Sequence record: PZ445511.1
Length of the DNA: 64,000 nucleotides
Source: a phage
Direction: 5' to 3' (one strand)
This document shows positions 32,928 through 47,768 of the stretch, in pieces (position 1 is the first letter of the stretch; every line of letters starts with the position of its first letter). The notes under the pieces were generated by a model. It ran no database searches and had not been told where the DNA came from. It worked only from the letters and a program-made list of their open reading frames with translations. Position numbers and translations under genes: made by a program.

Positions 32928-32965
32928 TAATAGTGGGGTGCCGAAACCACTTATGTAACAACACT

Positions 32966-33539: not shown

Positions 33540-33557
33540 AAACATTAAGGAATACTG

Positions 33558-37804: not shown

Positions 37805-38314
37805 ATGTTAGACTATGAGTCTATACTTTATAGATTCCGTTTAGAAGATGGTGTACTGGTGTGGAATCCGCTCTCCGGAAACTCCAGAGAGGAGAAGATA
37901 TTTAATACTAAGTTTGCCAATAAACCTGCGGGATCTTTGCACAAAAGCTCTGGGTATATCAGAGTTAACGTTGATCACCAAGATTACTTAGCTCATATCA
38001 TAGTATTTATACTATGATATGGGTATAGGCCGGAAATGGTTGATCATAAAGACTGCAATAAGTTAAATATACATCCTTTAAATTTAAGAGCAGCGGATAG
38101 TACCACTAATACTCATAATGCTAGTAAATCTTCTAGGAATACTAGCGGATTTAAGGGAGTATCCTACCACAAAGCATCTGGTCAGTGGCAGGGTAGAATA
38201 ATGTTTAAAGGTAAGTCATACTCCGCAGGGCTGCACAGTACTCCTGAAGCAGCAAATGAAGCTCTAATTCAACTGAGAGAGAAACTTCATGGGGAATATG
38301 CCCGAAATAATTAA
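37805..38314 (+). pseudogene. HNH homing endonuclease interrupted by in-frame TGA at 38015-38017
   Basis: Reading continues in the same frame across TGA: ...AHIIVFIL-stop-YGYRPEMVDHKDC..., matching the paralog sequence FIMYYGYRPEEVDHKD. Confidence 0.55.
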
Positions 38315-38403
38315 GGAAGAATAGCATAACGGTATTGCAGCAGATTGCTAATCTGTCGGTTTGAAACATAGCCTTGTGGGTTCGATTCCCACTTCTTCCG
38401 CCA
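38315..38403 (+). tRNA. tRNA-Ser (anticodon GCT), class II
   Basis: Acceptor ggaagaa/ttcttcc, anticodon loop ttgctaa, long variable arm, T-arm gtgggTTCGATTcccac, CCA. Confidence 0.75.
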
Positions 38404-38408
38404 AATTT

Positions 38409-38486
38409 GGTTCTCAAGCTCATTTGGTATGAGCCGTCGCCTCATAAGCGAAAGGTAGGTAGGTTCGAATCCTCCGGGAGCCACCA
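38409..38486 (+). tRNA. tRNA with CAT anticodon (Met or Ile2)
   Basis: Acceptor ggttctc/gggagcc (two G-U), D-arm gctc...gagc, anticodon loop ctcataa, T-loop TTCGAAT, CCA; A at position 8. Confidence 0.65.
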
Positions 38487-38635
38487 GATAACTAGGAGAC
38501 TTTATGTCACGCTTTCACGAAATTAAGCAAGAACTAGAAGAATGTATGTGTACTGAATGTTGGGGTTCTGGCACTTAATGTTCCAGTGACTGGATTCCCT
38601 GATTGGCTGCAAGGTTACGAACTCTAACAAAATTT

Positions 38636-38721
38636 GGATCTGTGGTGGAATTGGCAATACACACCATGCTTAAAACGTGGCGCTTAAATGATTGAGGGTT
38701 CGAGCCCCTCCAGATCCACCA
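38636..38721 (+). tRNA. tRNA-Leu (anticodon TAA), class II
   Basis: Acceptor ggatctg/cagatcc, anticodon loop cttaaaa, 13-nt variable arm, T-arm gagggTTCGAGCccctc, CCA. Confidence 0.75.
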
Positions 38722-38737
38722 AATTAAGGAAGTAAAA

Positions 38738-38860
38738 ATGAAATCTATTAAGAAAGCTATTCGTGAACTTATCCGTTGTCGCTTCCATAACATCAAGGCT
38801 TCAACTAATGGTACTACTTACGATCGCTATGATCCTAAGTTTGGCTTACATTCTAAATAA
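38738..38860 (+). CDS. Hypothetical small protein
   Basis: 40-aa ORF with aaggaag RBS. Confidence 0.35.
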   Translation: MKSIKKAIRELIRCRFHNIKASTNGTTYDRYDPKFGLHSK

Positions 38861-38873
38861 CTGGAGAAAACAA

Positions 38874-39080
38874 ATGGCTAATCCTGAAATTACGGCACAA
38901 CGTTTTATGCTGAAAGGAATTATTGCTGAAGCAGGCGTGACACAAGAAGTGGAAGATTTCCATAAGCAGTTCCTAAATATTCTCACTCAAGCCAAAGAGC
39001 TAGGAGAGAAAGAACATGGCGCGGCTATTATGGCAATCACATTGGTTGGGCTTGATCTGGCAGAAGAATCAGGAGTTTAA
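38874..39080 (+). CDS. Hypothetical protein
   Basis: 68 aa from ATG after ggagaaa RBS. Confidence 0.45.
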   Translation: MANPEITAQRFMLKGIIAEAGVTQEVEDFHKQFLNILTQAKELGEKEHGAAIMAITLVGLDLAEESGV

Positions 39081-39110
39081 CTTCTCCAAGCAGAAATTTT
39101 AAAAATGTAC

Positions 39111-39140
39111 TTGCTTTTTACTTAAGATTTCTGCTATAAT
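39111..39140 (+). promoter_or_regulatory. Sigma70 promoter
   Basis: ttgctt-18bp-tataat. Confidence 0.5.
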
Positions 39141-39169
39141 AGTTATATAAGTTGATGAGAGGAATCAGA

Positions 39170-39445
39170 ATGTTAAAACGTTTTGCAGCAACTGGTATTG
39201 AAAGCTCAGTATGTAAATCCTGGGGTGGTTGGGAAGGTGAGATCGAGTGGCTTTATTTCTACAATGTAGAACTTCTTCCAGAGATCAAAGCTCAATGTAT
39301 TGAGGCTGGTATGGCTCCTGATGCTACGGCTGATGTTGAAATCAGCATGAATAAGCTAGAGGGTCGAGTAGTCACTGTTACTGATGAAGGTGAAGAGGTA
39401 TTCGAACTTCCATTCACTTTGAAAGTCACTCCTTCATTTGATTAA
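39170..39445 (+). CDS. Hypothetical protein
   Basis: 91 aa from ATG after gagagg RBS. Confidence 0.5.
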   Translation: MLKRFAATGIESSVCKSWGGWEGEIEWLYFYNVELLPEIKAQCIEAGMAPDATADVEISMNKLEGRVVTVTDEGEEVFELPFTLKVTPSFD

Positions 39446-39483
39446 CTGATACAGCACTTGAGCAAGTTCTTTAAAATTTGACT

Positions 39484-39512
39484 TGCTCAAGTGCCTTAAA
39501 ACTTGATATAAT
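39484..39512 (+). promoter_or_regulatory. Sigma70 promoter for tRNA transcription unit; -35 lies inside a 13-bp inverted repeat
   Basis: ttgctc-17bp-tataat; approx 124-nt leader before tRNA-Tyr. Confidence 0.55.
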
Positions 39513-39636
39513 AGTTACCTAATTTGGAAACATATCTGAATGAGAAGTAATTAAGCGAGTTGCTTTGAGGGATAAAGTCAGGATAGCCGGAAATATTCCA
39601 CCTTGAGTTTAACCGACTTACTTTTCATTCAAATAT

Positions 39637-39717
39637 GGGGGATTGGCTCAGTGGCGACGGCGCCTGGCTGTAGACCGGGTATATCACGCGGAGGTTCGAG
39701 TCCTCCATCCCCCACCA
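39637..39717 (+). tRNA. tRNA-Tyr (anticodon GTA)
   Basis: Acceptor gggggat/atccccc, anticodon stem cctgg/ccggg with loop ctgtaga, extended variable region, T-arm ggaggTTCGAGTcctcc, CCA. Confidence 0.7.
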
Positions 39718-39725
39718 AAATTAAT

Positions 39726-39800
39726 GCACCTATCGTCTAATGGTTAGGACATCAGGATTTCAATCTGAGAATTGAACTCCGATTCTCCGTGGGTGTGCCA
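39726..39800 (+). tRNA. tRNA-Glu-like (anticodon TTC) with degenerate T-arm
   Basis: Good acceptor, D- and anticodon arms (loop atttcaa); T-arm tgaac/tccgatt/ctccg pairs poorly; CCA encoded. Confidence 0.45.
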
Positions 39801-39809
39801 ATTAATAAT

Positions 39810-39880
39810 TGGGGTACACATAGGTTGCTAGTGGGCCTCCAAAACCCATGAAAAGGTTTCGAATACCTTTACCCCTGCCA
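39810..39880 (+). tRNA. tRNA-Trp-like (anticodon CCA) with truncated D-arm
   Basis: Canonical T-arm aaggtTTCGAATacctt and CCA; anticodon loop ctccaaa with C31-A39 mismatch; U1-U72 mismatch; only 15 nt for the D region. Confidence 0.35.
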
Positions 39881-39886
39881 ATATTT

Positions 39887-39961
39887 GCACCTTTAGCTGA
39901 GATGGATTAGCGCTTGCCTGAAGAGCTTGAGAGGTTCGTTCAATTCGAACAGGGTGCACCA
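39887..39961 (+). tRNA. tRNA-Phe (anticodon GAA), weak anticodon stem
   Basis: Acceptor gcacctt/agggtgc, D-arm gctg...tagc, anticodon loop ctgaaga, T-arm gttcgTTCAATTcgaac, CCA. Confidence 0.55.
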
Positions 39962-39978
39962 ATTTGAAGGAGATGCTG

Positions 39979-40251
39979 ATGCATCCTGAAAACTTCTTTA
40001 TATACTGTACTAGTCCTTTGCTTAAACGCCGGATTAATAAAGTATATCACTACAGAGCTAGTCAACAGCCTTATGTTTATGATTCTAGTGGAGATCATAT
40101 TCCACTTGAGCAACTAGGGACTGATTATATGGTTTTGAAGCACTTTAATGAGGCGAAGATCTCTAGCGTTCATAACCGACAAAACTCTAAAACGTGGTGG
40201 CATAAGAAGCGTAAGAAAGGCATCAAATTTCTTAAAAATGTAGTTGCTTAA
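39979..40251 (+). CDS. Hypothetical protein
   Basis: Track ORF begins at TTG 39964 abutting the tRNA; ATG at 39979 has aggag at proper spacing. Confidence 0.45.
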   Translation: MHPENFFIYCTSPLLKRRINKVYHYRASQQPYVYDSSGDHIPLEQLGTDYMVLKHFNEAKISSVHNRQNSKTWWHKKRKKGIKFLKNVVA

Positions 40252-40272
40252 ATCCTTAAAGTTCTGTATAAT
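40244..40272 (+). promoter_or_regulatory. Sigma70 promoter
   Basis: ttgctt-17bp-tataat overlapping upstream stop codon. Confidence 0.55.
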
Positions 40273-40300
40273 TATTACATAAATTGAACTGGAGAACTAG

Positions 40301-40489
40301 ATGAAAGCACCTAAACCGAAATTAGTTAAGTTCGACTGCTGTGATACTGAAATCTTATTTACTAAGTTTGGTGAATTTAAGATGTGTGAATGTGGAACAT
40401 GTGGTTACGATCATGGTGATGGATATTATTGCAGAACCCTAGGGCCTTCTGAACTAATCCACTTCTCATGGCCGGAAAGTAAAGAATAA
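40301..40489 (+). CDS. Hypothetical Cys-rich small protein
   Basis: 62 aa with CC...CxC...CxxC pattern; ggagaa RBS. Confidence 0.5.
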   Translation: MKAPKPKLVKFDCCDTEILFTKFGEFKMCECGTCGYDHGDGYYCRTLGPSELIHFSWPESKE

Positions 40490-40491
40490 TA

Positions 40492-40567
40492 CGACCGTTG
40501 GCTGAATGGCTTAGGCGGAGGCCTGCAAAACCTCCTTATGTGAGTTCGAATCTCATGCGGTCGTCCA
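40492..40567 (+). tRNA. tRNA-Cys (anticodon GCA)
   Basis: Acceptor cgaccgt/gcggtcg, anticodon loop ctgcaaa (C31-A39), T-arm gtgagTTCGAATctcat, CCA. Confidence 0.65.
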
Positions 40568-40719
40568 ATTTGCTGAAAGAATTGTTAAATCAATTCAGGC
40601 ACGCGTAGGAACACTGCCTCAGTAATTGAAAGATGAGGCACGGTTTGGAGAGGTATGCCGCTACACGCTACGGTGCTAACTCCGTCTAGGTGAAAATCCT
40701 AGTCAGCAATATAAATTTA

Positions 40720-40802
40720 GGGTCGTTAGCCAAGCGGTTTGGCGGTGGACTGTTAATCCATGTCGAAAGACAACGTAGGTTCGAATCCTACACGGCCCGC
40801 CA
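40720..40802 (+). tRNA. tRNA with GTT anticodon (Asn) and unusual 13-nt variable arm
   Basis: Acceptor gggtcgt/acggccc, D-arm gcca...tggc, anticodon loop ctgttaa, variable gtcgaaagacaac, T-arm gtaggTTCGAATcctac, CCA. Confidence 0.65.
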
Positions 40803-40905
40803 TATTCTATGTAGGATTAAGTAAACCGGTAGCCAACCAGCTATCATTACTGATATCGAATTCAGTCACAGATACCATTTTTCACTAACAACTGAGGAAA
40901 TAGAT

Positions 40906-41091
40906 ATGACAACTCGTGCAATTGCTCGACTAGAAGCTGATCGTGATAATCTGATTAATAATATTAAGGTTCGTGGTAATATTATTAAGGCTCTGAAAGC
41001 TGAACTTCTTGAAGAACTTCAAGGTCAAGTAGAGCGTCGTGAAGCTCTAAAAGAGGTTGAGGAAGCTATCGAAAAACTCAAGGCTGAATAA
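40906..41091 (+). CDS. Hypothetical coiled-coil protein
   Basis: 61-aa ORF with gaggaaa RBS. Confidence 0.5.
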   Translation: MTTRAIARLEADRDNLINNIKVRGNIIKALKAELLEELQGQVERREALKEVEEAIEKLKAE

Positions 41092-41094
41092 ATT

Positions 41095-41676
41095 ATGCAC
41101 GGAATATCCTTACCCATTCCAGGGTTTGAGGAGTACTTAGTAAGTTTGGATGGGTTAGTATTTAGTATCAAATCAAACAAAATACTAACCCCAATAACCA
41201 GTAATTATGGATACTTATCTATACGTCTCCATAAAAATGGTCAACAGAGAAATACCGGTGTACATAGGATTTTAGCATGTGCATTTAAGAAATTACCAAG
41301 TCTAGACTCTGAACTAGAAGTTGACCATATTAACACAGACATTACTTATTGGGGTCTTAATAACTTACAAGTGCTCACAAAAGAGCAGCATCTAGAAAAG
41401 ACTTTAAAAGATAAAGGATTTAGTAAACTAAATCATGATAATTGTTGTAAGGATTGTGGTAAAGCTATTTCTTTAAAAGCTGAAAAATGTCAGGAGTGCT
41501 CTTCACATAAACCAAAAGATATCTCTATAACTAAAGAAATAATCGAGGTTACAGTAAGAGAGCTAGGCTGGTCAGGTGCAGGGAGAAAGTTAAATTATTC
41601 AGATAATGGGTTGCGTAAAAGATACACTTCTTTAGGAGGCAATCCTAAAGAACTTAAAAAGTTAAAGGTACTATAG
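41095..41676 (+). CDS. HNH homing endonuclease (NUMOD4-like N-terminus, HNH core, C-terminal zinc ribbon)
   Basis: 193 aa; GFEEYLVSLDG, VHRILA...VDHINTD...NL, CCKDCGK...CQEC. Confidence 0.7.
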   Translation: MHGISLPIPGFEEYLVSLDGLVFSIKSNKILTPITSNYGYLSIRLHKNGQQRNTGVHRILACAFKKLPSLDSELEVDHINTDITYWGLNNLQVLTKEQHLEKTLKDKGFSKLNHDNCCKDCGKAISLKAEKCQECSSHKPKDISITKEIIEVTVRELGWSGAGRKLNYSDNGLRKRYTSLGGNPKELKKLKVL

Positions 41677-41741
41677 TCTAACGGTTAGGATACTCCCCTG
41701 TCACGGGAGAGGTAGGGTTTCGATTACCCTTAGTACCGCCA
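41667..41741 (+). tRNA. tRNA-Asp (anticodon GTC)
   Basis: Acceptor ggtacta/tagtacc, anticodon stem ctccc/gggag loop ctgtcac, T-arm agggtTTCGATTaccct, CCA; 5' end overlaps HNH gene stop. Confidence 0.8.
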
Positions 41742-41747
41742 AATTAT

Positions 41748-41824
41748 ACATCCATAGCTCAACTGGTCAGAGCTACCGCCTCTTAAGCGGAGGGTTGAAG
41801 GTTCAAGTCCTTCTGGGAGTACCA
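41748..41824 (+). tRNA. tRNA-Lys (anticodon CTT)
   Basis: D-arm gctc...gagc, anticodon loop ctcttaa, T-arm gaaggTTCAAGTccttc, CCA; one acceptor mismatch. Confidence 0.65.
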
Positions 41825-42027
41825 AACAAATAGAGTAAAGGCTACAGTAGGTGCACCCTTACGGACTGCTACACCGGACTCTATTCATTAACAAACATTC
41901 TAGCGTGGTGGAGAGGGGACACCAGCTGTGCGAGGGTAGAAGCTTGTTCGATTCAAGTGAAAGAATGGTTCTCGTAAATCCGCAGCAGTGATAGTAGGTT
42001 CAAGTCCTACCTAGATTGACTTATTAT

Positions 42028-42101
42028 GCGTTCGTAGTTAAAAGGTATAATTTTTGGTTGCCAACCAGAAGTTGAGGGTTCGATTCCCTCCGACCGCACC
42101 A
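42028..42101 (+). tRNA. tRNA-Gly (anticodon GCC)
   Basis: Acceptor gcgttcg/cgaccgc (one mismatch), anticodon loop ttgccaa, T-arm gagggTTCGATTccctc, CCA. Confidence 0.7.
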
Positions 42102-42351
42102 AATTTAGGGTTCTGCTTCCTAGAGAACGGACTCCTAGATAAACAAGGCGATGAGTTTCCGGCCGGTTCTAGTCGCTGAAAATCCTCCCGACCAGGTAGG
42201 TGTAGGTAAACGAAAGTTTACTTATTGAGTAGGTTCCGATAGATCGGCGGATCTATTCTGGCATTTAAGAGAAGTCTCGCAAACTTCTTTGTCAGCAGAG
42301 CGTTTGAAGCGTGAGGTGGCCTACACAATAAGTAAATTTATTAAAAACTCA

Positions 42352-42381
42352 TTTGCTATTTCACTTAATTCTCTTTATAAT
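42352..42381 (+). promoter_or_regulatory. Sigma70 promoter for tRNA transcription unit
   Basis: ttgcta-18bp-tataat directly upstream of tRNA-Pro. Confidence 0.55.
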
Positions 42382-42413
42382 ATATCTTATAAAGTGAGTT
42401 AACAAAGAATATT

Positions 42414-42491
42414 CTCCGTGTAGCTCAGTTTGGCCAGAGCGTTCCGTTTGGGGCGGTAGGGTCGGGGGTTCAAATCCTCCCACGGAGACCA
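42414..42491 (+). tRNA. tRNA-Pro (anticodon TGG)
   Basis: Acceptor ctccgtg/cacggag, D-arm gctc...gagc, anticodon loop tttgggg (G37), T-arm gggggTTCAAATcctcc, CCA. Confidence 0.75.
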
Positions 42492-42497
42492 AACAAT

Positions 42498-42575
42498 TGC
42501 GGGTTAGATCTCTGGTAGAGATCGCTAGTCTCATAAGCTAGAAAGAGGTAGGTTCGATTCCTACACCCGCTTCCA
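42498..42575 (+). tRNA. tRNA with CAT anticodon (Met-type; unpaired 1-72, possibly initiator-like)
   Basis: Anticodon stem ctagt/gctag loop ctcataa, T-arm gtaggTTCGATTcctac, CCA; position 1 U opposite U72. Confidence 0.6.
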
Positions 42576-42594
42576 ATTTAATAGAGGATACGAA

Positions 42595-42759
42595 ATGAAA
42601 TTATTTCGATTGGTAGTAAGTGATAGACGGTCTAGCAAAGATCGTTCGAAGTATACCTTAGCCCATTATGGGAAAGATGAAAATGAAGTAATGGCTGAAT
42701 TTGGTATTAATCATCGCTACTTAGAAGTTTACTCTATTAAGGAAGTTTATCCGTATTAA
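42595..42759 (+). CDS. Hypothetical small protein
   Basis: 54-aa ORF with agagga RBS between two tRNAs. Confidence 0.4.
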   Translation: MKLFRLVVSDRRSSKDRSKYTLAHYGKDENEVMAEFGINHRYLEVYSIKEVYPY

Positions 42760-42837
42760 GGGTCGTTAGCTCAATTGGTTAGTAGCACTTGCCTTTTAAG
42801 CAATAGGTTGAAGGTTCGAGTCCTTCACGACCCACCA
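42760..42837 (+). tRNA. tRNA-Lys (anticodon TTT)
   Basis: Acceptor gggtcgt/acgaccc, anticodon loop cttttaa, T-arm gaaggTTCGAGTccttc, CCA. Confidence 0.75.
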
Positions 42838-42846
42838 AATTACTTT

Positions 42847-42920
42847 GCTCGGTTAGTTTAATGGGAGAACCCCGTCTTTACACGGCGGTTGCGATAGTTC
42901 GATTCTATCACCGAGTACCA
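42847..42920 (+). tRNA. tRNA-Val (anticodon TAC)
   Basis: Acceptor gctcggt/accgagt, anticodon stem ccgtc/ggcgg loop tttacac, T-arm gatagTTCGATTctatc, CCA. Confidence 0.75.
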
Positions 42921-42939
42921 ATTAACTCAAAATAAGGAA

Positions 42940-43299
42940 TTGCAAATGCAATTATCAAGCAAGATTCAAGGCTATTTTGGTCATGTAACAATGGAGTTCG
43001 CTATCTCTAAAGGTTGGGATTTCGAGCAAGATCTAGCTGAGTTCTACAAAGATATTGATCTGAACGTACCATACATGGGACTCTCCACTGGTCAAGAGAT
43101 CACAGAAGGCGATGTGTTCAAGGCAAGTCAAGGTGAGGTAACACCTAATTTTGCCAAGTTCTGGTTAGGACTTACTTTGAAGGAAGATGCACCAGAGGAT
43201 GGTGTGGTTATGCAGAGTATGCACTCTGGAAGCTCTGATTACCTTTTCGTTAGCGACGTTAAGGAACTACAAGAAATCGCTAAAAATGTACTTGCTTGA
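42940..43299 (+). CDS. Hypothetical protein
   Basis: 119-aa ORF (TTG start per track; internal ATG 6 nt later) after aaggaa RBS. Confidence 0.5.
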   Translation: MQMQLSSKIQGYFGHVTMEFAISKGWDFEQDLAEFYKDIDLNVPYMGLSTGQEITEGDVFKASQGEVTPNFAKFWLGLTLKEDAPEDGVVMQSMHSGSSDYLFVSDVKELQEIAKNVLA

Positions 43300-43320
43300 T
43301 GCTTAATTTCTTGTTATAAT
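43292..43320 (+). promoter_or_regulatory. Sigma70 promoter overlapping upstream stop codon
   Basis: ttgctt-17bp-tataat then gatgagga-GAAA-tcctcatc hairpin in leader. Confidence 0.55.
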
Positions 43321-43582
43321 ATTTATATAAATTGATGAGGAGAAATCCTCATCAAAGTTCACTAAGGTATTAGCTCGACCTAGGGCTGGCTGCCAAAAAG
43401 CACAATTGCAATTAGACCCCTAATGGCGGGGGATACTTTGCAATAAGTTCTAGATTAGTCCACTAGATTCAGTGGCAACTGAATAGTGTATCGGGTTTGT
43501 GAAGAGCGGTTATCCTCTACTGGCTAATGTCTGAGGGTAATACGCACACCGAGCTAATAGCCTTAGTAAACTTAAAGATTTT

Positions 43583-43661
43583 GGGGAATGGGTCTGCTTG
43601 GAGTGGACACCTCGCTTGCACCGAGGATATCAGAAGAGTTCGAATCTCTTATTCTCCACCA
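43583..43661 (+). tRNA. tRNA-Ala-like (anticodon TGC), G3-U70 present, 7-nt variable loop
   Basis: Acceptor ggggaat/attctcc with G3-U70, anticodon stem cctcg/cgagg loop cttgcac, T-arm aagagTTCGAATctctt, CCA. Confidence 0.55.
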
Positions 43662-43666
43662 AATTC

Positions 43667-43742
43667 GGGGTCATAGGTTATTTGGTTAAACTTACTGCCT
43701 TGCAAGCAGTGGAACTCAGTTCAATTCTGAGTGACTCCACCA
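43667..43742 (+). tRNA. tRNA-Ala (anticodon TGC)
   Basis: Acceptor ggggtca/tgactcc with G3-U70, anticodon stem actgc/gcagt loop cttgcaa, T-arm ctcagTTCAATTctgag, CCA. Confidence 0.7.
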
Positions 43743-43761
43743 AACAAATTAAGGAAATAAT

Positions 43762-43980
43762 ATGGTATTCTTAGCAGCCTCTGTAGTTCTTGCAGCTTTA
43801 GCACTAGCTATCTATTTTAGAACTATTAAAGATTTAGCTAAAGAAAAGAAAACTTTCTTTACTGATTATTCTTGGGGCGCTCCATATAACGTCCGCTTTA
43901 TCAGCTTAGAAGCTATGCTGATAATGGTATTCAGTGGCATAGGTTCCATTGTTGCAGGGTTACTATTTATTTCTAACTAA
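43762..43980 (+). CDS. Hypothetical small membrane protein
   Basis: 72 aa with two hydrophobic helices; aaggaaa RBS. Confidence 0.5.
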   Translation: MVFLAASVVLAALALAIYFRTIKDLAKEKKTFFTDYSWGAPYNVRFISLEAMLIMVFSGIGSIVAGLLFISN

Positions 43981-43987
43981 ATAAAAT

Positions 43988-44068
43988 GGGGATGTGGCGA
44001 AATTGGCAGACGCGCTAGATTTAGGTTCTAGTCTTCGGGTGTGGGTTCGAGTCCCTCCATCCCTACCA
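43988..44068 (+). tRNA. tRNA-Leu (anticodon TAG), class II
   Basis: Acceptor ggggatg/catccct, anticodon stem ctaga/tctag loop tttaggt, long variable arm, T-loop TTCGAGT, CCA. Confidence 0.7.
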
Positions 44069-44084
44069 AACATTGGATTAACTC

Positions 44085-44261
44085 ATGATGAAAACTCCTA
44101 TAACTGATATCTGGTTAGCTGTTAATACATCAACTAAAGAGTATGTGTTTATAGAGTATGGTCAGAGGTATGACCAAAAGATGTATAATCTCATACTTCC
44201 AGTATCTGCTAATGAAGTTTATGATTTAATCCTGAGATCTACGGAAGAGCAAATCGATTAG
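44085..44261 (+). CDS. Hypothetical small protein
   Basis: 58-aa ORF; 3' end overlaps tRNA-Ser(GGA). Confidence 0.35.
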   Translation: MMKTPITDIWLAVNTSTKEYVFIEYGQRYDQKMYNLILPVSANEVYDLILRSTEEQID

Positions 44262-44335
44262 GTGACGAAAACCGCTTGGAAAGTGGCTGACTTGTTAAAG
44301 CAGGCTTGAGAGTTCGAATCTCTCTTCTTCCGCCA
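44243..44335 (+). tRNA. tRNA-Ser (anticodon GGA), class II
   Basis: Acceptor ggaagag/ttcttcc, anticodon loop ttggaaa, approx 20-nt variable arm, T-arm gagagTTCGAATctctc, CCA. Confidence 0.55.
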
Positions 44336-44356
44336 AACAACTAATAGGGAATATAA

Positions 44357-44599
44357 ATGAAAGTCAAGATTATGATGTTGGATTTAGCTAATGATAAGTT
44401 TTTCTTGCGTCATACATTCCCTAGTAAGCAAGCTTTAGAGTTTCATATCAAGTACGCAATGGGCATGAAACTTCCTGAGCGAGAAATATTTGATAAAGCA
44501 TGTGATACTGGAGTTATTTATGTATGGCAAACAACCTATCATGATAATCCAGAAGATCTTCGAAAAGAAGTAGAACAAATACTAGAAGATAGTACGTAG
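44357..44599 (+). CDS. Hypothetical protein
   Basis: 80-aa ORF; 3' end overlaps tRNA-Ser(TGA). Confidence 0.45.
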   Translation: MKVKIMMLDLANDKFFLRHTFPSKQALEFHIKYAMGMKLPEREIFDKACDTGVIYVWQTTYHDNPEDLRKEVEQILEDST

Positions 44600-44673
44600 T
44601 GGTATGTAACCGGTCTTGAAAACCGGCCCGCTGTAGTGATACGGTGATGGTTCGACTCCATTATCTTCTGCCA
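44584..44673 (+). tRNA. tRNA-Ser (anticodon TGA), class II
   Basis: Acceptor agaagat/atcttct, anticodon stem ccggt/accgg loop cttgaaa, long variable arm, T-arm gatggTTCGACTccatt, CCA. Confidence 0.7.
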
Positions 44674-44998
44674 AATCTTGAAGTATGCCGGAATCGGTAG
44701 ACGGGGCTTCCTAAAGGGCGTAAGGGGAACATCCACTCCTCATAAGATACCCGAAAACGAGGCTGAGATAACTGGTCTATCTCGTGAAGGTTCGAGTCCT
44801 TCTGCTTCTTGATATTCATCAATGGCTCAAAGTGTAACGGTGCTATTTGATGCTCTTAGTAAGACTTTCCCGACATGCGTTCGGGAGTAAGCTGCTAAGG
44901 CTAGAGTAGAAGAGTTTCGGAGAGCCGCCACAATTGAAGTCTTTAGAATGGGTATCGCCCTTTAGCCCCTCCGAAAGGGATAACTAGAGATTTCAATT

Positions 44999-45075
44999 GT
45001 GGCTATATCATAATTGGTTAATGATCCTGATTGTGAATCAGGCCTATGTGGATTCGAATTCCACTAGCCACCCCA
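44999..45075 (+). tRNA. tRNA-His (anticodon GTG)
   Basis: Acceptor gtggcta/tagccac, discriminator C, anticodon stem cctga/tcagg loop ttgtgaa, T-arm gtggaTTCGAATtccac, CCA. Confidence 0.75.
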
Positions 45076-45081
45076 AATATT

Positions 45082-45156
45082 GCGTCCTTATTTCAACGGA
45101 AAGAATGTAAAGCTACGAACTTTACGATCGGGGTTCGATTCCCTGAGGATGCACCA
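45082..45156 (+). tRNA. tRNA-Arg (anticodon ACG)
   Basis: Acceptor gcgtcct/aggatgc, anticodon stem taaag/cttta loop ctacgaa, T-arm cggggTTCGATTccctg, CCA. Confidence 0.75.
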
Positions 45157-45180
45157 ATTAACTTAAACAGGAAATAAAAT

Positions 45181-45381
45181 ATGGCTGATTTCTGCAAAGA
45201 ATGCTCTATTGATATGTGGGGCAGAGATACTGGTGATCTTTCTGGTCTGATTACAGAAGCCGAAGTTAAAGAAGGCTATGGTGCTGTTGTAATCTGTGAA
45301 GGTTGTGGCATTATCCGTGTTGATCATAATGGTAAACGTCTAGAAGAACCTGATCCAATCGCCACGGTTCCTGTAGAATAA
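45181..45381 (+). CDS. Hypothetical zinc-ribbon-like small protein
   Basis: 66 aa with CxxC...CxxC; ggaaataaaat upstream. Confidence 0.5.
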   Translation: MADFCKECSIDMWGRDTGDLSGLITEAEVKEGYGAVVICEGCGIIRVDHNGKRLEEPDPIATVPVE

Positions 45382-45388
45382 AAATTAT

Positions 45389-45464
45389 TGGGATGTAGAT
45401 CAATTGGTAGATCGTCGGCCTCTGACTCCGAAGGTTCCACGTTCGATCCGTGGCATCCCAGCCA
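45389..45464 (+). tRNA. tRNA-Gln (anticodon CTG)
   Basis: U1-A72 acceptor tgggatg/catccca, D-arm gatc...gatc, anticodon loop ctctgac, T-arm ccacgTTCGATCcgtgg, CCA. Confidence 0.7.
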
Positions 45465-45470
45465 AACAAT

Positions 45471-45546
45471 TGGAGAGTAGTGTAACGGTTAGCACAACGG
45501 CCTTTGACTCCGTTAATGGTAGGTTCGATTCCTCCTTCTCCAGCCA
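45471..45546 (+). tRNA. tRNA-Gln (anticodon TTG)
   Basis: U1-A72 acceptor tggagag/ttctcca, anticodon loop ctttgac, T-loop TTCGATT, CCA. Confidence 0.7.
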
Positions 45547-45552
45547 ATTTAT

Positions 45553-45627
45553 GCGTGATTAGTTCAGTGGCTAGAATAACTGGCTTCCAACCAGTAGACA
45601 CGAGTTCGACTCTCGTATCCCGCACCA
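45553..45627 (+). tRNA. tRNA-Gly (anticodon TCC)
   Basis: Anticodon stem actgg/ccagt loop cttccaa, T-arm acgagTTCGACTctcgt, CCA; one acceptor mismatch. Confidence 0.7.
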
Positions 45628-45643
45628 AATATAAGGAAACGTT

Positions 45644-45865
45644 ATGGACGTTTTTGAGTTTCGTAATAAAAATCCTAATAGACGAGTTTTAATTATTGGT
45701 GAAACATACCGAGCTTATGAACAGGAAGACGGTTCGGTTTTATTAAATGATGAAAAGCAAGGCTATAGCTTTCATCCAGAAGAAACATATGAAGAATTTC
45801 GTACTAAGTTTCTTTTACCAGACTGGCTAGCAATAGCTGAGCAAAGAGAACCCGAAGAGGGCTGA
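45644..45865 (+). CDS. Hypothetical protein
   Basis: 73-aa ORF with aaggaaa RBS. Confidence 0.5.
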   Translation: MDVFEFRNKNPNRRVLIIGETYRAYEQEDGSVLLNDEKQGYSFHPEETYEEFRTKFLLPDWLAIAEQREPEEG

Positions 45866-46032
45866 TAATCTAAAGCTAAAGGTTGATAAGCAAATGAAGT
45901 GTGTTGAGGTTGAGTTGGGTGAAGAACGTTTAAAACTCTCATTCGAATTTCTACAGCAGTTGGCTATGACAGTAATGTCTGATAAGTCCCTTATATTTGA
46001 AAAAGAAATCCCGTTGAAATAATGGGTTTATT

Positions 46033-46107
46033 GCTCCTAAAGCATTGCTGGCGATGCAGTTGCCTTGTAAGCATCTGAACCGGGTTCGATTCCAGGTGGG
46101 AGCACCA
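46033..46107 (+). tRNA. tRNA-Thr (anticodon TGT)
   Basis: Acceptor gctccta/tgggagc, D-arm gcat...atgc, anticodon loop cttgtaa, T-loop TTCGATT, CCA. Confidence 0.65.
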
Positions 46108-46123
46108 AATTTAAAAAATTCAT

Positions 46124-46152
46124 TTGCCTTCTCTCTTATTTCTTGTTATAAT
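46124..46152 (+). promoter_or_regulatory. Sigma70 promoter
   Basis: ttgcct-17bp-tataat. Confidence 0.5.
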
Positions 46153-46182
46153 ATTTATATAAATTAATTAGAGGGAAACCAA

Positions 46183-46476
46183 ATGAAACGTTATCTTTCT
46201 GTCGTGTTCCAAACTGGTGGTCAACGCTACACTTATGAATTTCCTGAGTCCTGGAAAATTAAAGAAGGTGATCAAGTTGTTGTATTAACACCTCGTGAAG
46301 GCTTCAAAGTAGTAACGGTTAAACAAGTATTTCCAAAAGATCACGAACCATCTAAGTCTATTCAGTACAAGATGATTCACGGTCTGGTACGAAAAGTACC
46401 TAGAACAGAAGTCGAAGTAGATAAAACTGGGGGAGTTAAGTATCAATATACATCCTACTTAGACGAGATGATGTAA
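46183..46476 (+). CDS. Hypothetical protein
   Basis: 97-aa ORF with gagggaaa RBS. Confidence 0.55.
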   Translation: MKRYLSVVFQTGGQRYTYEFPESWKIKEGDQVVVLTPREGFKVVTVKQVFPKDHEPSKSIQYKMIHGLVRKVPRTEVEVDKTGGVKYQYTSYLDEMM

Positions 46477-46676
46477 TGAGAATTACTTTCACAGAAAAGA
46501 TTATGTGTAATGGTGTTATGATCATTACAGCGTGGGACGGTAAATTGTGGTGTAACGTATCTGGTCTAAAGCCAGAAGATCAAACACCTGAAAACATCCG
46601 CAAAGTAAAGCGAAAAATGGCGGAACGTGCCCAACTTCCAGGTGCTCCAAGAAATGGAGGCTATTTTTCAACCTAA
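46476..46676 (+). CDS. Hypothetical protein
   Basis: 66-aa ORF, ATGA-coupled. Confidence 0.45.
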   Translation: MRITFTEKIMCNGVMIITAWDGKLWCNVSGLKPEDQTPENIRKVKRKMAERAQLPGAPRNGGYFST

Positions 46677-46677
46677 T

Positions 46678-46753
46678 GCTCCGATAGTTCAACAGGTTAG
46701 AACAGGCGACCGATAATCGTCAAATCTTGGTTCGATCCCAAGTCGGAGTACCA
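46678..46753 (+). tRNA. tRNA-Ile (anticodon GAT)
   Basis: Acceptor gctccga/tcggagt, D-arm gttc...gaac, anticodon stem ggcga/tcgtc loop ccgataa (C33), T-arm cttggTTCGATCccaag, CCA. Confidence 0.65.
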
Positions 46754-46759
46754 AATTAT

Positions 46760-46835
46760 AGTTAGTTGGCAGAACGGTTATGCACCTCCTTCATACGGAG
46801 CGACTACAGTGGTTCAACTCCACTACTAACTACCA
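46760..46835 (+). tRNA. tRNA with CAT anticodon (Met or Ile2)
   Basis: Acceptor agttagt/actaact, anticodon loop ttcatac, T-arm agtggTTCAACTccact, CCA. Confidence 0.6.
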
Positions 46836-47018
46836 AAGATAAGATCAGGCCTTTGTGCCAGATCTCTGTGTTTATTAAACTGAATGGGACTATCAATCCA
46901 CAAGCCGGACTACGAGCGATTATCGGGTATTCACTTAATAAACAGCCTGCCTCCCAGTTTTTATCTTGCTTCTGGGTTAACAAAAAGCTGAGCCAAATTC
47001 TAACATCAGGGAGATCTA

Positions 47019-47387
47019 ATGAAAGCATATCAAAGTCTTAAGTCTGGCGTAATTAACATTGTTCATAACAATCAGATCATTCAACTATATTCTAAAGATG
47101 GTAAACTTAAACAGAAAGTTCTAGTCGAAGATCTAGAAGGTATCACACCTCACTTTGACCCTGAGGCCTTTCGCATTGTAGATGTGGAAGTGGTTCCTCA
47201 AGTCGAGGGTGGTCAGCACCTAAATGTCAATGTGTTAAGCCGTGATCAGCTTTTGGATGCACAGAAACATCCTGAAAAATATCCTCAGTTGACCATCCGT
47301 GTCTCTGGCTATGCTGTTCGATTTAACGCATTGACGCGTGAACAACAGAACGACGTTATTAGTCGTACATTTACTCAGGCGATATAA
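47019..47387 (+). CDS. grcA: Autonomous glycyl-radical cofactor (GrcA/YfiD-like)
   Basis: 122 aa; C-terminus [12 protein letters not shown]...[28 protein letters not shown] closely resembles the glycyl-radical domain (RVSGY). Confidence 0.75.
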
Positions 47388-47468
47388 TGGGGTTTGGATA
47401 CGATTTCTCCCAGCTACGCAAGGTAGTCGAGCAAACTCCATTTATCTCCCAAGTTTTAGGAGAAATGT

Positions 47469-47768
47469 GTGGATCGAGCATTAAGACGCCATCACCGGCA
47501 ACGTGTGAAAAACAATCGCAAAAAGTATTGGACAGTCTTCCCACATGAAGAAAGTCCTAAGCGGTTAGGCATTATCACTACCACTCCTTGCATCTGTTCT
47601 TGTTGGATGTGTGGGAATCCTCGCAAATACTATAAGAATAGTAAAGCAGGTATGAAAATCTCGGAGATTAAAAAGATGGGTGCAATGATTATGGGCATCA
47701 CCTTTACAGGCGGTATCTCTGATGAATTCGACGGTTTTGTAACTCAGGATATTGTCGAAATTATCTAA
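47469..47768 (+). CDS. Hypothetical Cys-rich basic protein
   Basis: 99 aa (GTG start after aggag); CICSCWMCGNP cluster. Confidence 0.45.
   Translation: MDRALRRHHRQRVKNNRKKYWTVFPHEESPKRLGIITTTPCICSCWMCGNPRKYYKNSKAGMKISEIKKMGAMIMGITFTGGISDEFDGFVTQDIVEII

What the first reader, a model, noticed from the sequence alone, without database searches (positions are those of the whole stretch)
40568..40719. Structured inter-tRNA spacers that may encode small RNAs
Several spacers in the array lack ORFs and tRNAs but are rich in stable hairpins: 40568-40719, 42102-42351, 43321-43582 and 44836-44998. The last contains an 11-bp helix whose 3' arm overlaps the tRNA-His 5' end. They may be processed small RNAs or precursor-folding elements.
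Basis: inference. Interest (0 to 1): 0.45.

Follow-up and report, generated by a model that had tools for sequence, protein, structure and literature searches.

The report
Small tRNA-like RNAs in phage tRNA array
The "empty" gaps between tRNA genes of this T5-like Salmonella phage hold genes for small folded RNAs: most are the long-known but unexplained "stable RNAs" of phage T5, and the gap at 40568-40719 holds a previously unannotated tRNA-shaped one.

Summary
The window is a T5-like phage (about 99% identical to Salmonella phages vB_SenS-3, RA40 and S147).

All four flagged spacers are real, lack tRNAs and credible ORFs, and fold better than shuffles (z -3.8, -2.1, -7.4, -3.1).

Three of them are already known. 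The T5 RefSeq and the BF23 tRNA-region records annotate "stable RNA with unknown functions" at the homologous places:
- RNAIV = 42227-42327
- RNA2H = 43368-43562
- RNAI = 44824-44930
- Between them lie the "tRNA-like" RNA1, RNA2 and RNA3.

The headline spacer (40568-40719) has no T5 or BF23 counterpart; T5 carries the T5orf172 ORF there.
- It is a 141-nt cloverleaf at 40570-40710: a 7-bp acceptor-like stem, a D-like arm, a 5-bp T-like arm with a 7-nt loop, and a branched ~65-nt insertion where the anticodon loop should be.
- 15 of its 39 pairs show compensatory changes, and 0 of 500 shuffles reach that.
- It occurs in about 220 T5-like phages and in the unrelated Mydovirus tRNA arrays. It is absent from Rfam, E. 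coli genomes and GTDB genomes.

Function remains unknown. The closest architectural analogues are T5 RNA1/RNA2 and T4 RNAC. Verdict: a new member of a known kind, of moderate interest.

The parts
40570..40710 (+). S1: unannotated tRNA-shaped RNA. Acceptor-like stem P1 with a discriminator-like U at 40710; no encoded CCA. It starts 2 nt after the CCA of tRNA-Cys and ends 9 nt before tRNA-Asn.
   Evidence: RNAalifold consensus and pair counts on 11 variants. Relaxed ARAGORN calls 40570-40710 a tRNA with a 63-nt insert. The covariance model R1 aligns true tRNAs end to end at low score.
40570..40576 (+). S1 P1 5' strand (UUGCUGA). Pairs with 40703-40709 (UCAGCAA): 7 bp, acceptor-like.
   Evidence: 4 of 7 pairs have changes on both sides (GC/AU, CG/UA, UA/CG, GC/UA); 100% paired.
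40579..40596 (+). S1 P2, D-like hairpin: GAAUUG-UUAAAU-CAAUUC (6 bp, 6-nt loop, no GG).
   Evidence: 4 of 6 pairs are compensated.
40598..40677 (+). S1 P3 (GGCAC-G-CGUAG with CUACGGUGCU, 10 bp) in the position of the anticodon arm. It encloses a 3-way junction with P4 (40616-40620/40635-40639, loop ..AAUUGAAAGAU) and P5 (40641-40647/40654-40660, purine loop GGAGAGG), plus invariant single-stranded CUACACG (40661-40667).
   Evidence: The outer half of P3 has 2 compensated pairs and its inner half never varies. P4 has 3 compensated pairs and P5 has 1. The competing single-sequence fold breaks in relatives.
40686..40702 (+). S1 P6, T-like arm: CUAGG-UGAAAAU-CCUAG (5 bp, 7-nt loop), directly abutting the 3' strand of P1 as in tRNA.
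   Evidence: One compensated pair (AU to UA in Mydovirus); the loop is invariant.
40805..40877 (+). Homologue of T5/BF23 RNA3 ('putative tRNA-like RNA').
   Evidence: 92% identity to T5 RNA3; annotation.
41896..42021 (+). Homologue of T5/BF23 RNA2 ('tRNA-like stable RNA'). It ends in a canonical T-arm, GUAGGUUCAAGUCCUAC.
   Evidence: 84-86% identity; annotation.
42102..42226 (+). First half of flagged spacer 2: an unassigned structured segment after tRNA-Gly(GCC). 42141-42226 is conserved in BF23 but not annotated there.
   Evidence: 95% identity to the BF23 spacer between tRNA-Gly2 and RNAIV. A few compensated pairs in GSW6, read by eye from the alignment.
42227..42327 (+). Homologue of T5/BF23 RNAIV (103-nt stable RNA). 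It folds as three hairpins inside a 9-bp stem, itself inside a 13-bp outer stem (42214-42226 / 42327-42339). It lies just upstream of the P13a-like promoter at 42353-42381.
   Evidence: 89% identity. Consensus fold of 15 variants, mostly invariant or changed on one side only. Promoter match.
43333..43354 (+). 5' hairpin UUGAUGAGG-AGAAAU-CCUCAUCAA, just after the P13b-like promoter. Absent from phiR2-01 and L008.
43368..43562 (+). Homologue of T5/BF23 RNA2H (172 nt in T5). It is closed by a ~22-bp helix (43356-43377 / 43550-43572), and two internal hairpins are replaced wholesale relative to T5.
   Evidence: With Sugarlandvirus homologues added, 21 of 49 pairs are compensated and the covariation term is -9.68.
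44677..44823 (+). Homologue of T5/BF23 RNA1 ('tRNA-like stable RNA'). It looks like a class-II tRNA: a Leu-like D loop GGAAUCGGUAGAC (resemblance to tRNA-Leu is from memory), a variable-arm hairpin, a canonical T-arm, and an extended anticodon arm.
   Evidence: 80% identity. ARAGORN -i calls 44679-44810 a tRNA with a 41-nt insert. 10 compensated pairs.
44824..44930 (+). Homologue of T5/BF23 RNAI (107-nt stable RNA). It has a terminal stem GGCUC/GAGCC followed by a 3' GCCA (ACCA in one relative).
   Evidence: 91.6% identity. Its internal hairpin is swapped in phiR2-01 and SuperGirl while the ends stay conserved.
44927..45003 (+). 68-nt three-way hairpin occupying the slot of T5 RNAIII but unrelated to it in sequence. 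Its 20-bp stem joins the 3' tail of RNAI to the 5' end of tRNA-His.
   Evidence: It is nearly invariant in the four relatives examined, so there is no covariation evidence.

Best explanation
The flagged spacers are genes for small non-coding RNAs that belong to the tRNA operons of T5-like phages.

Biogenesis (inferred). The RNAs are transcribed on the same strand as the tRNAs from the early promoters and are cut out of the polycistronic precursors. The tRNA-shaped ones would be released by the tRNA-processing machinery: RNase P at the 5' side of the acceptor-like stem, then exonucleolytic 3' trimming. These are S1 at 40570-40710, RNA1, RNA2 and RNA3, and probably RNAIV and RNAI, which ends in NCCA. 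The ones closed by long perfect stems look like RNase III substrates: RNA2H, and the 20-bp stem that bridges RNAI and tRNA-His.

Shown here:
- homology to annotated T5/BF23 stable RNAs for three of the four spacers;
- conserved, compensated secondary structure for S1, RNA2H and RNA1;
- a cloverleaf topology for S1, with a ~65-nt branched insertion replacing the anticodon loop;
- S1's tRNA-like placement in the arrays of two unrelated phage groups.

Inferred, not shown: which nucleases act, and that S1 accumulates as an RNA.

Function. S1 cannot decode. It has no 7-nt anticodon loop, no encoded CCA, and no G18G19 / T-Psi-C consensus. My favoured reading (about 0.35) is that S1, like RNA1 and RNA2, is a tRNA mimic. 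Its tRNA body would supply processing and stability, and its conserved inserted arm would be the working part. That arm carries the loops AAUUGAAAGAU and GGAGAGG and the GCUAC-AC-GCUAC repeat, and it would bind a host or phage factor that is still unknown. The function of the whole class has been unknown since the T4 and T5 RNAs were first described.
For: - Identity of the phage and of the array.
- T5 and BF23 annotations of RNAI, RNAIII, RNAIV, RNA2H, RNA1, RNA2, RNA3 and RNAX. Their mapping onto the window.
- S1 fold: 99% of cells paired; 15 of 39 pairs changed on both sides; 0/500 shuffles reach this; slid controls give 2 or fewer. The alternative fold is worse: 94.2% paired, and its helix 3 breaks in relatives.
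- S1 is the only non-tRNA segment shared between the Mydovirus arrays and this window: 71-80% identity against 74-98% for the tRNA segments.
- S1 follows an upstream tRNA CCA by 2 nt in T5-like, Sugarlandvirus and Mydovirus copies.
- RNA2H: helix replacement between window and T5, and 21 of 49 pairs compensated once Sugarlandvirus is added.
- The ends annotated for T5 RNA2H fall in the closing helix and leave a 2-nt 3' overhang. This is my reading; it is the geometry known for RNase III.
- RNA1: 10 compensated pairs, with its extension in the anticodon-arm position.
- T4 RNAC has the same plan of a terminal stem, a long arm, an extra hairpin and a T-arm. It is a real RNA confirmed by Northern blot and still of unknown function (PMC9697503; PMC3014915).
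Against: - There is no expression data for S1 in any phage. The T5 and BF23 records that document stable RNAs lack S1.
- S1 diversity amounts to three lineages (T5-like, Sugarlandvirus/phiR2-01, Mydovirus), so the compensated pairs represent few independent events. The inner half of P3 and most of P5 and P6 never vary.
- S1 is dispensable. About two thirds of T5-like records lack it (220 against 663 records). T5 has an ORF in its place. NR01 carries a truncated copy.
- The T-like loop UGAAAAU and the D-like loop UUAAAU depart from the tRNA consensus, so recognition by RNase P is assumed, not shown.
- The 68-nt hairpin before tRNA-His and the segment 42102-42226 have little or no covariation support.
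Confidence: 0.78

Rival explanations
1. Purely cis-acting precursor-folding or processing elements. On this view the structures exist only to direct correct cutting and folding of the neighbouring tRNAs, for example as RNase III or RNase E entry sites or as anti-misfolding clamps. The excised pieces would be by-products without a function of their own.
For: - RNA2H and the leader at 39537-39631 lie between a promoter and the first tRNA and are closed by long stems.
- The 20-bp stem at 44927-45003 pairs the 3' tail of RNAI with the 5' end of tRNA-His.
- RNAIV sits inside a 13+9 bp stem at the end of a transcription unit.
Against: - Most tRNAs in the same array are separated by only 5-9 nt and need no such elements.
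- S1 has invariant loops and junctions, and compensated helices inside its insertion. That is more constraint than a cleavage site needs.
- T5 and BF23 annotate the pieces as stable RNAs, not transient spacers.
- S1 occurs next to different tRNAs in different phages: Cys/Asn, Asn/Cys, Ser/Ser.
Confidence: 0.25
2. Decaying tRNA pseudogenes. On this view they are relics of duplicated tRNA genes that picked up insertions and are drifting without function.
For: - RNA1 looks like a tRNA-Leu-type gene with an insertion.
- S1 is dispensable, is replaced by an ORF in T5, and is truncated in NR01.
- tRNA arrays turn over quickly; gene order differs between genera.
Against: - The compensatory changes keep every helix paired, including helices in the inserted arm.
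- S1 is 96-100% identical among T5-like phages in which the RNA2H core is only 77-80% identical.
- S1 is retained at tRNA-like identity across two unrelated phage groups.
Confidence: 0.12
3. Small protein-coding genes. Several GenBank records lay 'hypothetical protein' CDSs over these spacers, and S1 contains a 12-codon frame: AUG at 40655, UGA in the T-like loop, preceded by GGAGAGG.
For: - CDS annotations lie over S1 in vB_SenS-3 and Roth37, and over RNAI and the hairpin in SuperGirl and AKM_HA2021_32.
- The 12-codon frame is open in both the T5-like and the Mydovirus copies of S1 (my reading).
Against: - The annotated ORFs are not conserved: the window has no + strand ORF of 30 aa or more over 44830-44990.
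- In the 12-codon frame, 3 of the 4 codons that differ between T5-like and Mydovirus change the amino acid, and three of the five base changes are the RNA-compensating ones.
- The spacing from the Shine-Dalgarno-like GGAGAGG to the AUG is 1-4 nt.
- The variation fits base pairing, not codons.
Confidence: 0.03
4. S1 is an intron-containing suppressor tRNA. On this view, removing a ~63-nt insert would give a tRNA with anticodon CUA, as relaxed ARAGORN suggests.
For: ARAGORN at 80% threshold reports 'tRNA-Pyl (cta) i(34,63)' at 40570-40710. The CUA is invariant.
Against: - The resulting loop would be CGCUACG, with G at position 33 and C at position 37. Both violate the tRNA rules U33 and purine-37 (established tRNA knowledge).
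- The insert would lie at positions 31/32, not 37/38.
- 63 nt is far too short for a group I intron, which is the only tRNA intron type known in bacteria and phages.
- There is no encoded CCA, although every true tRNA in the array has one.
- The same relaxed ARAGORN run gives dozens of false calls.
Confidence: 0.02

Closest known systems
Stable RNAs of the phage T5 / BF23 tRNA region: RNAI, RNAIII, RNAIV, RNA2H, and the tRNA-like RNA1, RNA2 and RNA3 (GenBank NC_005859, AJ604530)
   Same: - Direct sequence homologues in the same order and on the same strand: RNAI at 91.6%, RNAIV at 89%, RNA2H core at 77%, RNA1 at 80%, RNA2 at 84-86%, RNA3 at 92%.
- The same promoters flank them: P13a after RNAIV and P13b before RNA2H.
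   Different: - S1 has no counterpart in T5 or BF23, where T5orf172 occupies the slot.
- T5 RNAIII is replaced here by an unrelated 68-nt hairpin.
- The window's RNA2H has two different, longer hairpins.
- 42102-42226 is unannotated even in BF23.
Phage T4 species 1 RNA (RNAC, 139 nt) and species 2 RNA (RNAD) in the T4 tRNA cluster
   Same: - Small stable RNAs encoded inside a phage tRNA cluster, on the tRNA strand.
- RNAC has a terminal stem directly followed by a canonical T-arm, a long central arm and an extra hairpin. This is the same plan as S1 and RNA1.
- Function still unknown (PMC3014915, PMC9697503).
   Different: - No sequence or covariance-model similarity: R1 finds nothing in the T4 locus.
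- RNAC lacks a D-like arm and has a consensus T-loop, whereas S1 has a D-like arm and a non-consensus T-like loop.
Canonical tRNA (Rfam RF00005)
   Same: - Four-way junction with a 7-bp terminal stem, a 2-nt linker, a hairpin, a 1-nt linker, a 5-bp stem (the outer half of P3), a variable region, a 5-bp stem with a 7-nt loop, and then the 3' strand of the terminal stem.
- Sits in a tRNA slot of the array.
   Different: - The anticodon loop is replaced by a ~65-nt branched insertion.
- The D stem is 6 bp and its loop has no GG.
- The T loop is UGAAAAU, not UUCRANY.
- No CCA is encoded.
- Not reported by the Rfam tRNA model even at E <= 10.
tRNA-mimicking RNAs: tmRNA and bacterial Y-RNA-like YrlA
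   Same: A tRNA-like module joined to a larger functional domain. This is a resemblance from general knowledge.
   Different: - ARAGORN finds no tmRNA.
- There is no Rfam hit to tmRNA or any Y-RNA family.
- S1 has no G3-U70 pair and no CCA.
- In YrlA the RNA ends lie in the Ro-binding stem, not in the acceptor-like stem.
GOLLD / ROOL large phage RNAs found next to tRNA genes
   Same: Structured non-coding RNAs of unknown function that tend to sit beside tRNAs in phage genomes (general knowledge).
   Different: - Those are 500-800 nt and have their own Rfam models, none of which matches this window.
- The RNAs here are 70-200 nt.
- Only the T5 'RNAX' region (window ~32924-33542) is of comparable size, and it was not studied here.

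Membership tests
T5/BF23 stable RNAs (RNAI, RNAIV, RNA2H) | Sequence homology to the annotated T5/BF23 RNA over its whole length | tested here: met
   RNAI 107/107 nt at 91.6%. RNAIV 101/103 nt at 89%. RNA2H: 135 nt by BLAST at 77%, plus a full-length alignment with two hairpins swapped.
T5/BF23 stable RNAs (RNAI, RNAIV, RNA2H) | Same position relative to tRNA genes and early promoters | tested here: met
   RNA2H lies between the P13b-like promoter and tRNA-Ala. RNAIV lies just before the P13a-like promoter. The order RNA1, RNAI, then tRNA-His is kept.
T5/BF23 stable RNAs (RNAI, RNAIV, RNA2H) | Accumulates as a discrete stable RNA in infected cells | not testable with these tools
   Rests only on the depositors' annotation 'stable RNA with unknown functions'.
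T5/BF23 stable RNAs, applied to S1 (40570-40710) | Has a homologue among the annotated T5/BF23 RNAs | tested here: not met
   No BLAST match to any T5 or BF23 RNA. The S1 covariance model hits only S1 copies and, weakly, true tRNAs in the T5 and BF23 loci. T5 has the T5.069 ORF in that slot.
Phage tRNA-like stable RNAs (T5 RNA1/RNA2, T4 RNAC) as an architectural class, applied to S1 | The 5' and 3' ends pair in an acceptor-like stem, and a T-arm-like hairpin directly precedes the 3' strand | tested here: met
   P1 is 7 bp with 4 compensated pairs. P6 is 5 bp with a 7-nt loop and has no nucleotide between it and the P1 3' strand.
Phage tRNA-like stable RNAs (T5 RNA1/RNA2, T4 RNAC) as an architectural class, applied to S1 | Extension or insertion in the anticodon-arm position, so that no decoding loop exists | tested here: met
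   P3 opens into a 3-way junction with P4 and P5. RNA1 shows the same kind of extension. T4 RNAC has a long central arm.
Phage tRNA-like stable RNAs (T5 RNA1/RNA2, T4 RNAC) as an architectural class, applied to S1 | Encoded within a tRNA array on the tRNA strand at tRNA-like spacing | tested here: met
   2 nt after the CCA of the upstream tRNA in all three lineages. 9 nt (this window) and 7 nt (Mydovirus) before the next tRNA.
tRNA (RF00005) | Reaches the Rfam gathering score, or is called by ARAGORN at default settings | tested here: not met
   No tRNA hit for 40560-40725 even at E <= 10. ARAGORN calls it only at an 80% threshold with a 63-nt 'intron'.
tRNA (RF00005) | 7-nt anticodon loop with U33 and purine-37; G18G19 in the D loop; UUCRANY in the T loop; a CCA end, which every tRNA of this array encodes | tested here: not met
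   Read from the sequence: no such anticodon loop; D-like loop UUAAAU; T-like loop UGAAAAU; the 3' end is ...UCAGCAA-U-AUAAAUUUA.
tmRNA | tRNA-Ala-like domain with a G3-U70 pair and CCA, plus a tag reading frame | tested here: not met
   ARAGORN reports no tmRNA. Pair 3:70 of P1 is G-C or A-U. No CCA is present.
Any Rfam 15 family | Covariance-model match | tested here: not met
   Only tRNAs reach gathering score in the window. There is no meaningful sub-threshold hit in any of the four spacers.

The most novel reading that the evidence does not exclude
S1, and by extension RNA1, RNA2 and T4 RNAC, may be an RNA-based counter-defence. It would be a non-decoding tRNA decoy, processed like a tRNA. 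It would soak up or mis-direct host factors that recognise the tRNA shape, such as anticodon nucleases or other tRNA-targeting immune effectors (the PARIS AriB, PrrC/RloC or retron-associated PtuAB type), or tRNA-modifying enzymes. The conserved inserted arm would provide specificity.

This would fit three observations:
- it is an accessory, patchily distributed element;
- it has been exchanged between unrelated phage families that infect the same hosts;
- it is located in arrays whose true tRNAs are already known to counter tRNA-cleaving defences. The T5 tRNA-Lys/PARIS case is the paper PMC11464382 listed; the T5 tRNA-Tyr/retron Eco7 case is described in PMC10644984.
Probability: 0.12. Interest if true: 0.8.

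Novelty: new member of a known kind. Interest (0 to 1): 0.4.

Why it matters
Phage tRNA arrays are now being studied as counter-measures to tRNA-cleaving bacterial immunity. Meanwhile, the non-tRNA RNAs embedded in them have been unexplained for decades, and recent T5-like genome papers ignore them: the 2023 BF23 genome paper does not mention them at all.

This analysis shows three things:
- The 'spacers' of a typical Salmonella T5-like phage are those RNAs.
- Annotation pipelines miss them, or cover them with false CDSs.
- At least one further tRNA-shaped RNA (S1) exists. It has strong covariation support, and it is shared between Demerecviridae and Mydovirus.

That gives a defined, dispensable, about 140-nt target for deletion and pull-down experiments. 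It also gives a covariance model that could be used for annotation.

Tried and rejected
**Known RNA families.** Rfam at gathering score and at permissive E-values found no family for any spacer.

**S1 as an intron-bearing amber-suppressor tRNA.** Rejected: G33 and C37 in the would-be loop, wrong insert position, insert too short for a group I intron, no CCA (plus the sequence).

**S1 as a mini-tmRNA or a 12-codon ORF.** Rejected: no G-U at 3:70, no CCA, and the substitutions follow base pairing rather than codons.

**Single-sequence MFE fold of S1** (long central arm closed by GGCA/UGCC, plus an ACGG/CCGU hairpin). Rejected in favour of the P3 cloverleaf, because the MFE fold breaks in Mydovirus. 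The small ACGG..CCGU hairpin could still be an alternative conformer.

**Shared motif UGAAAAUCC** in S1 and in 42177-42185, as a sign of common origin. Not significant: 2 matches found, 0.8 expected, and 19 of 100 shuffles do as well.

**Paralogy of S1 with RNA1, RNA2 or T4 RNAC.** The covariance model gives no hits.

**Host origin of S1.**
- No match in 5,426 E. coli genomes.
- One pattern match in GTDB genomes, which the covariance model rejects and which has no tRNAs nearby.

**Wider family.** Two pattern scans of IMG/VR and one of metagenomes returned only T5-like and Mydovirus copies.

**Literature.** Searches for the old T5 small-RNA papers or for T5-like transcriptomes covering S1 found nothing usable.

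**Thermodynamic scan.** Sliding 150-nt z-scores depend on register and also flag coding regions, so they were not used as evidence.
Full report
**What the window is**

The region is the tRNA array of a T5-like phage (Demerecviridae, Epseptimavirus). The stretch 38000-47500 is 98-99% identical to Salmonella phages vB_SenS-3, RA40 and S147, and 663 phage records match it. ARAGORN finds 28 tRNAs on the + strand between 32965 and 46835. Rfam adds one more, at 39726-39797. Every tRNA encodes its CCA, and adjacent tRNAs are typically 5-9 nt apart.

**Checking the observation**

None of the four intervals contains a tRNA or a credible ORF. Each folds better than its dinucleotide shuffles:

| Interval | z-score | Shuffles as stable |
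|---|---|---|
| 40568-40719 | -3.79 | 0/200 |
| 42102-42351 | -2.12 | 5/200 |
| 43321-43582 | -7.35 | 0/200 |
| 44836-44998 | -3.09 | 0/200 |

A sliding 150-nt scan shows that such scores depend on register and also occur inside ORFs. I therefore relied on comparative evidence rather than stability.

The helix that reaches into tRNA-His is real. It has 12 perfect pairs (44927-44938 / 44992-45003) and extends to 20 pairs.

**Three of the four spacers are known RNAs**

A BLAST of the spacers against phage genomes brought up two records that annotate RNAs at these very places: the T5 RefSeq NC_005859 and the BF23 tRNA-region record AJ604530. Their features are:
- RNAI (107 nt), RNAIII (106 nt, abutting tRNA-His), RNAIV (103 nt) and RNA2H (172 nt), each labelled "stable RNA with unknown functions";
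- RNA1 (144 nt) and RNA2 (125 nt), labelled "tRNA-like stable RNA", and RNA3 (73 nt), labelled "putative tRNA-like RNA";
- RNAX (719-784 nt).

Mapping them on the window gives:

| T5/BF23 RNA | Window coordinates | Identity |
|---|---|---|
| RNAI | 44824-44930 | 91.6% |
| RNA1 | 44677-44823 | 80% |
| RNA2H | from 43368; by alignment to 43562 | 77% (core) |
| RNAIV | 42227-42327 | 89% |
| RNA2 | 41896-42021 | 84-86% |
| RNA3 | 40805-40877 | 92% |

- Spacer 2 is an unassigned segment (42102-42226) followed by RNAIV. The part 42141-42226 is 95% identical to an unannotated BF23 spacer.
- Spacer 3 is a promoter-proximal hairpin followed by RNA2H.
- Spacer 4 is most of RNAI followed by a 68-nt three-way hairpin. 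That hairpin occupies the slot of T5 RNAIII but is unrelated to it.

**Structure support for the known RNAs**

*RNA2H.* The core and the ~22-bp closing helix are invariant among T5-like phages, while two internal hairpins are replaced wholesale between this window and T5. Adding four Sugarlandvirus homologues, 21 of 49 consensus pairs show changes on both sides, including 7 in the closing helix. The covariation term is -9.68. The ends annotated for T5 RNA2H fall inside that closing helix and leave a 2-nt 3' overhang. That is the geometry of RNase III cleavage; this step is my inference.

*RNAIV.* It folds as three hairpins inside a 9-bp stem, itself inside a 13-bp stem. The relatives are too close for much covariation: only 2 pairs are compensated.

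*RNAI.* It keeps its ends, GGCUC...GAGCC followed by GCCA (ACCA in one relative). Its internal hairpin is swapped in phiR2-01 and SuperGirl.

*RNA1.* It looks like a class-II tRNA with an extended anticodon arm, and 10 of its pairs are compensated.

*The 68-nt hairpin before tRNA-His.* It is nearly invariant in the four relatives examined, so it has no covariation evidence.

**The headline spacer, S1**

T5 and BF23 have nothing homologous here. Between tRNA-Cys and tRNA-Asn they carry ORF T5.069, the founding member of Pfam T5orf172.

Distribution of S1:
- About 220 phage records carry it, at 96-100% identity in most T5-like phages.
- It is 86-90% identical in Sugarlandvirus (Klebsiella phages) and phiR2-01.
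- About 80% identity over 85 nt (71% over about 170 nt) is found in Mydovirus, which belongs to the unrelated Vequintavirinae. There it lies between two tRNA-Ser genes.
- Between the Mydovirus arrays and this window, only tRNAs and S1 are alignable.

Fold of S1, from an alignment of 11 distinct variants including one metagenomic. RNAalifold returns a cloverleaf:
- P1: 40570-40576 / 40703-40709, 7 bp.
- Linker AA.
- P2: 40579-40584 / 40591-40596.
- Linker A.
- P3: 40598-40608 / 40668-40677, 10 bp. It opens into a three-way junction with P4 (40616-40620 / 40635-40639) and P5 (40641-40647 / 40654-40660).
- Invariant single-stranded CUACACG.
- An 8-nt "variable" strand.
- P6: 40686-40690 / 40698-40702, 5 bp with the 7-nt loop UGAAAAU, abutting the 3' strand of P1.

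Pair counts support this fold. 99% of cells are paired, 15 of 39 pairs are changed on both sides, 0 of 500 shuffles reach that, and controls with the partners slid by 1-3 columns give 2 or fewer. The single-sequence MFE alternative is worse: 94.2% paired, and its central helix breaks in Mydovirus.

Several other results fit a tRNA-shaped reading:
- A covariance model of S1 finds only S1 copies, plus true tRNAs aligned end to end at low score. It does not find RNA1, RNA2 or T4 RNAC.
- ARAGORN at a relaxed threshold reads 40570-40710 as a tRNA with a 63-nt insert.
- S1 begins 2 nt after the CCA of the upstream tRNA in all three lineages.

S1 is nevertheless not a tRNA. It has no anticodon loop, no G18G19, no UUCRANY loop and no CCA, and Rfam's tRNA model does not report it.

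S1 is absent from Rfam, from E. coli genomes and from GTDB genomes. Pattern scans of IMG/VR and metagenomes recover only T5-like and Mydovirus copies.

**How it most likely works**

Shown:
- These are conserved, structured, same-strand elements embedded in tRNA operons.
- Three of the four are homologues of RNAs annotated as stable species.
- S1 has tRNA topology with an insertion replacing the anticodon loop.

Inferred:
- The tRNA-shaped ones are released by RNase P and 3' trimming.
- The long-stem ones are released by RNase III.
- S1 accumulates as an RNA of about 141 nt.

The function is unknown for the whole class. T4 RNAC, which has the same plan, has been confirmed by Northern blot yet still has no assigned role (PMC3014915; PMC9697503).

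My favoured reading, at about one chance in three, is a tRNA mimic. The tRNA body would give processing and stability, and the conserved inserted arm would be the working part.

The rivals are:
- cis-only processing elements, which is plausible for RNA2H and for the hairpin before tRNA-His;
- drifting tRNA relics, which the compensated helices and the cross-family retention argue against;
- small ORFs, which the substitution pattern argues against;
- an intron-bearing suppressor tRNA, which is rejected.

**Novelty and verdict**

The general phenomenon and three of the four spacers are already known, although only from GenBank annotation and from old literature that I could not retrieve. Modern T5-like genome papers ignore them.

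S1 is a new, well-supported member of the class of phage tRNA-like stable RNAs, and it has an unusual distribution across phage families. Interest is moderate. It would rise sharply if S1 turned out to be a decoy for tRNA-targeting defences.

Noticed in passing
It has a 15-bp perfect hairpin (39454-39494), then a P14a-like promoter, then a leader closed by a 14-bp helix (39537-39550 / 39618-39631) just before tRNA-Tyr. The z-score is -5.92 (0/200 shuffles). T5 does not annotate it as an RNA.
   Followed up: partly
window 39726-39797, 39810-39880, 44246-44335: Three tRNA genes missed by default ARAGORN. tRNA-Glu(UUC) is found only by Rfam. tRNA-Trp(CCA) and tRNA-Ser(GGA) are found only at a relaxed ARAGORN threshold. 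T5 annotates all three.
   Followed up: partly
window 32924-33542 (with 32965-33038): Partial homologue of T5/BF23 'RNAX', a 719-784-nt stable RNA lying between promoter P16-17 and tRNA-Arg. ARAGORN's odd 'tRNA-SeC(tca)' call lies inside it. This window also has a 169-aa ORF (33558-34067) before tRNA-Arg. A large unexplained phage RNA next to a tRNA is reminiscent of GOLLD/ROOL, but no Rfam model matches.
   Followed up: no
L019 7007-7525 (T5), compared with window 40568-40719: T5 and BF23 carry the T5orf172/MUG113-domain ORF (GIY-YIG-like) exactly where this phage has S1. The two are alternative occupants of the tRNA-Cys/tRNA-Asn slot, which may reflect mobile-element replacement.
   Followed up: partly
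L012 (Salmonella phage NR01), minus strand, around 915-1009: A truncated S1: the 5' half is replaced by a promoter-like sequence and an ORF start. This shows S1 can be lost or disrupted in a sequenced phage genome.
   Followed up: no
L027 246-404 (SuperGirl bas29_0121); L028 197-403; S1 region in vB_SenS-3 and Roth37: GenBank 'hypothetical protein' CDSs are laid over RNAI, over the pre-His hairpin and over S1. They are not conserved as ORFs and are probably annotation artefacts.
   Followed up: partly
window 42227-42327 (RNAIV): RNAIV itself is cloverleaf-shaped. The 7-nt loop of its middle hairpin, CUCGCAA, obeys the anticodon-loop rules U33 and A37. It may be another tRNA derivative, although T5 annotates it only as 'stable RNA'.
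   Followed up: partly
L005 (Klebsiella phage VLCpiM5a) 3342-3698, 3777-3981, 4901-5113, 6555-7140, 7297-7543: The Mydovirus tRNA array also has several 200-590-nt gaps between tRNAs with no annotated genes, besides the gap that holds S1. They may hold further unannotated RNAs.
   Followed up: no
window 41095-41676: A 193-aa ORF with a NUMOD4 motif sits inside the array. By eye and from neighbouring records it appears to be an HNH-type homing endonuclease; only NUMOD4 was confirmed here. T5 carries the comparable endonuclease genes hegA, hegC and hegD among its tRNA genes.
   Followed up: partly
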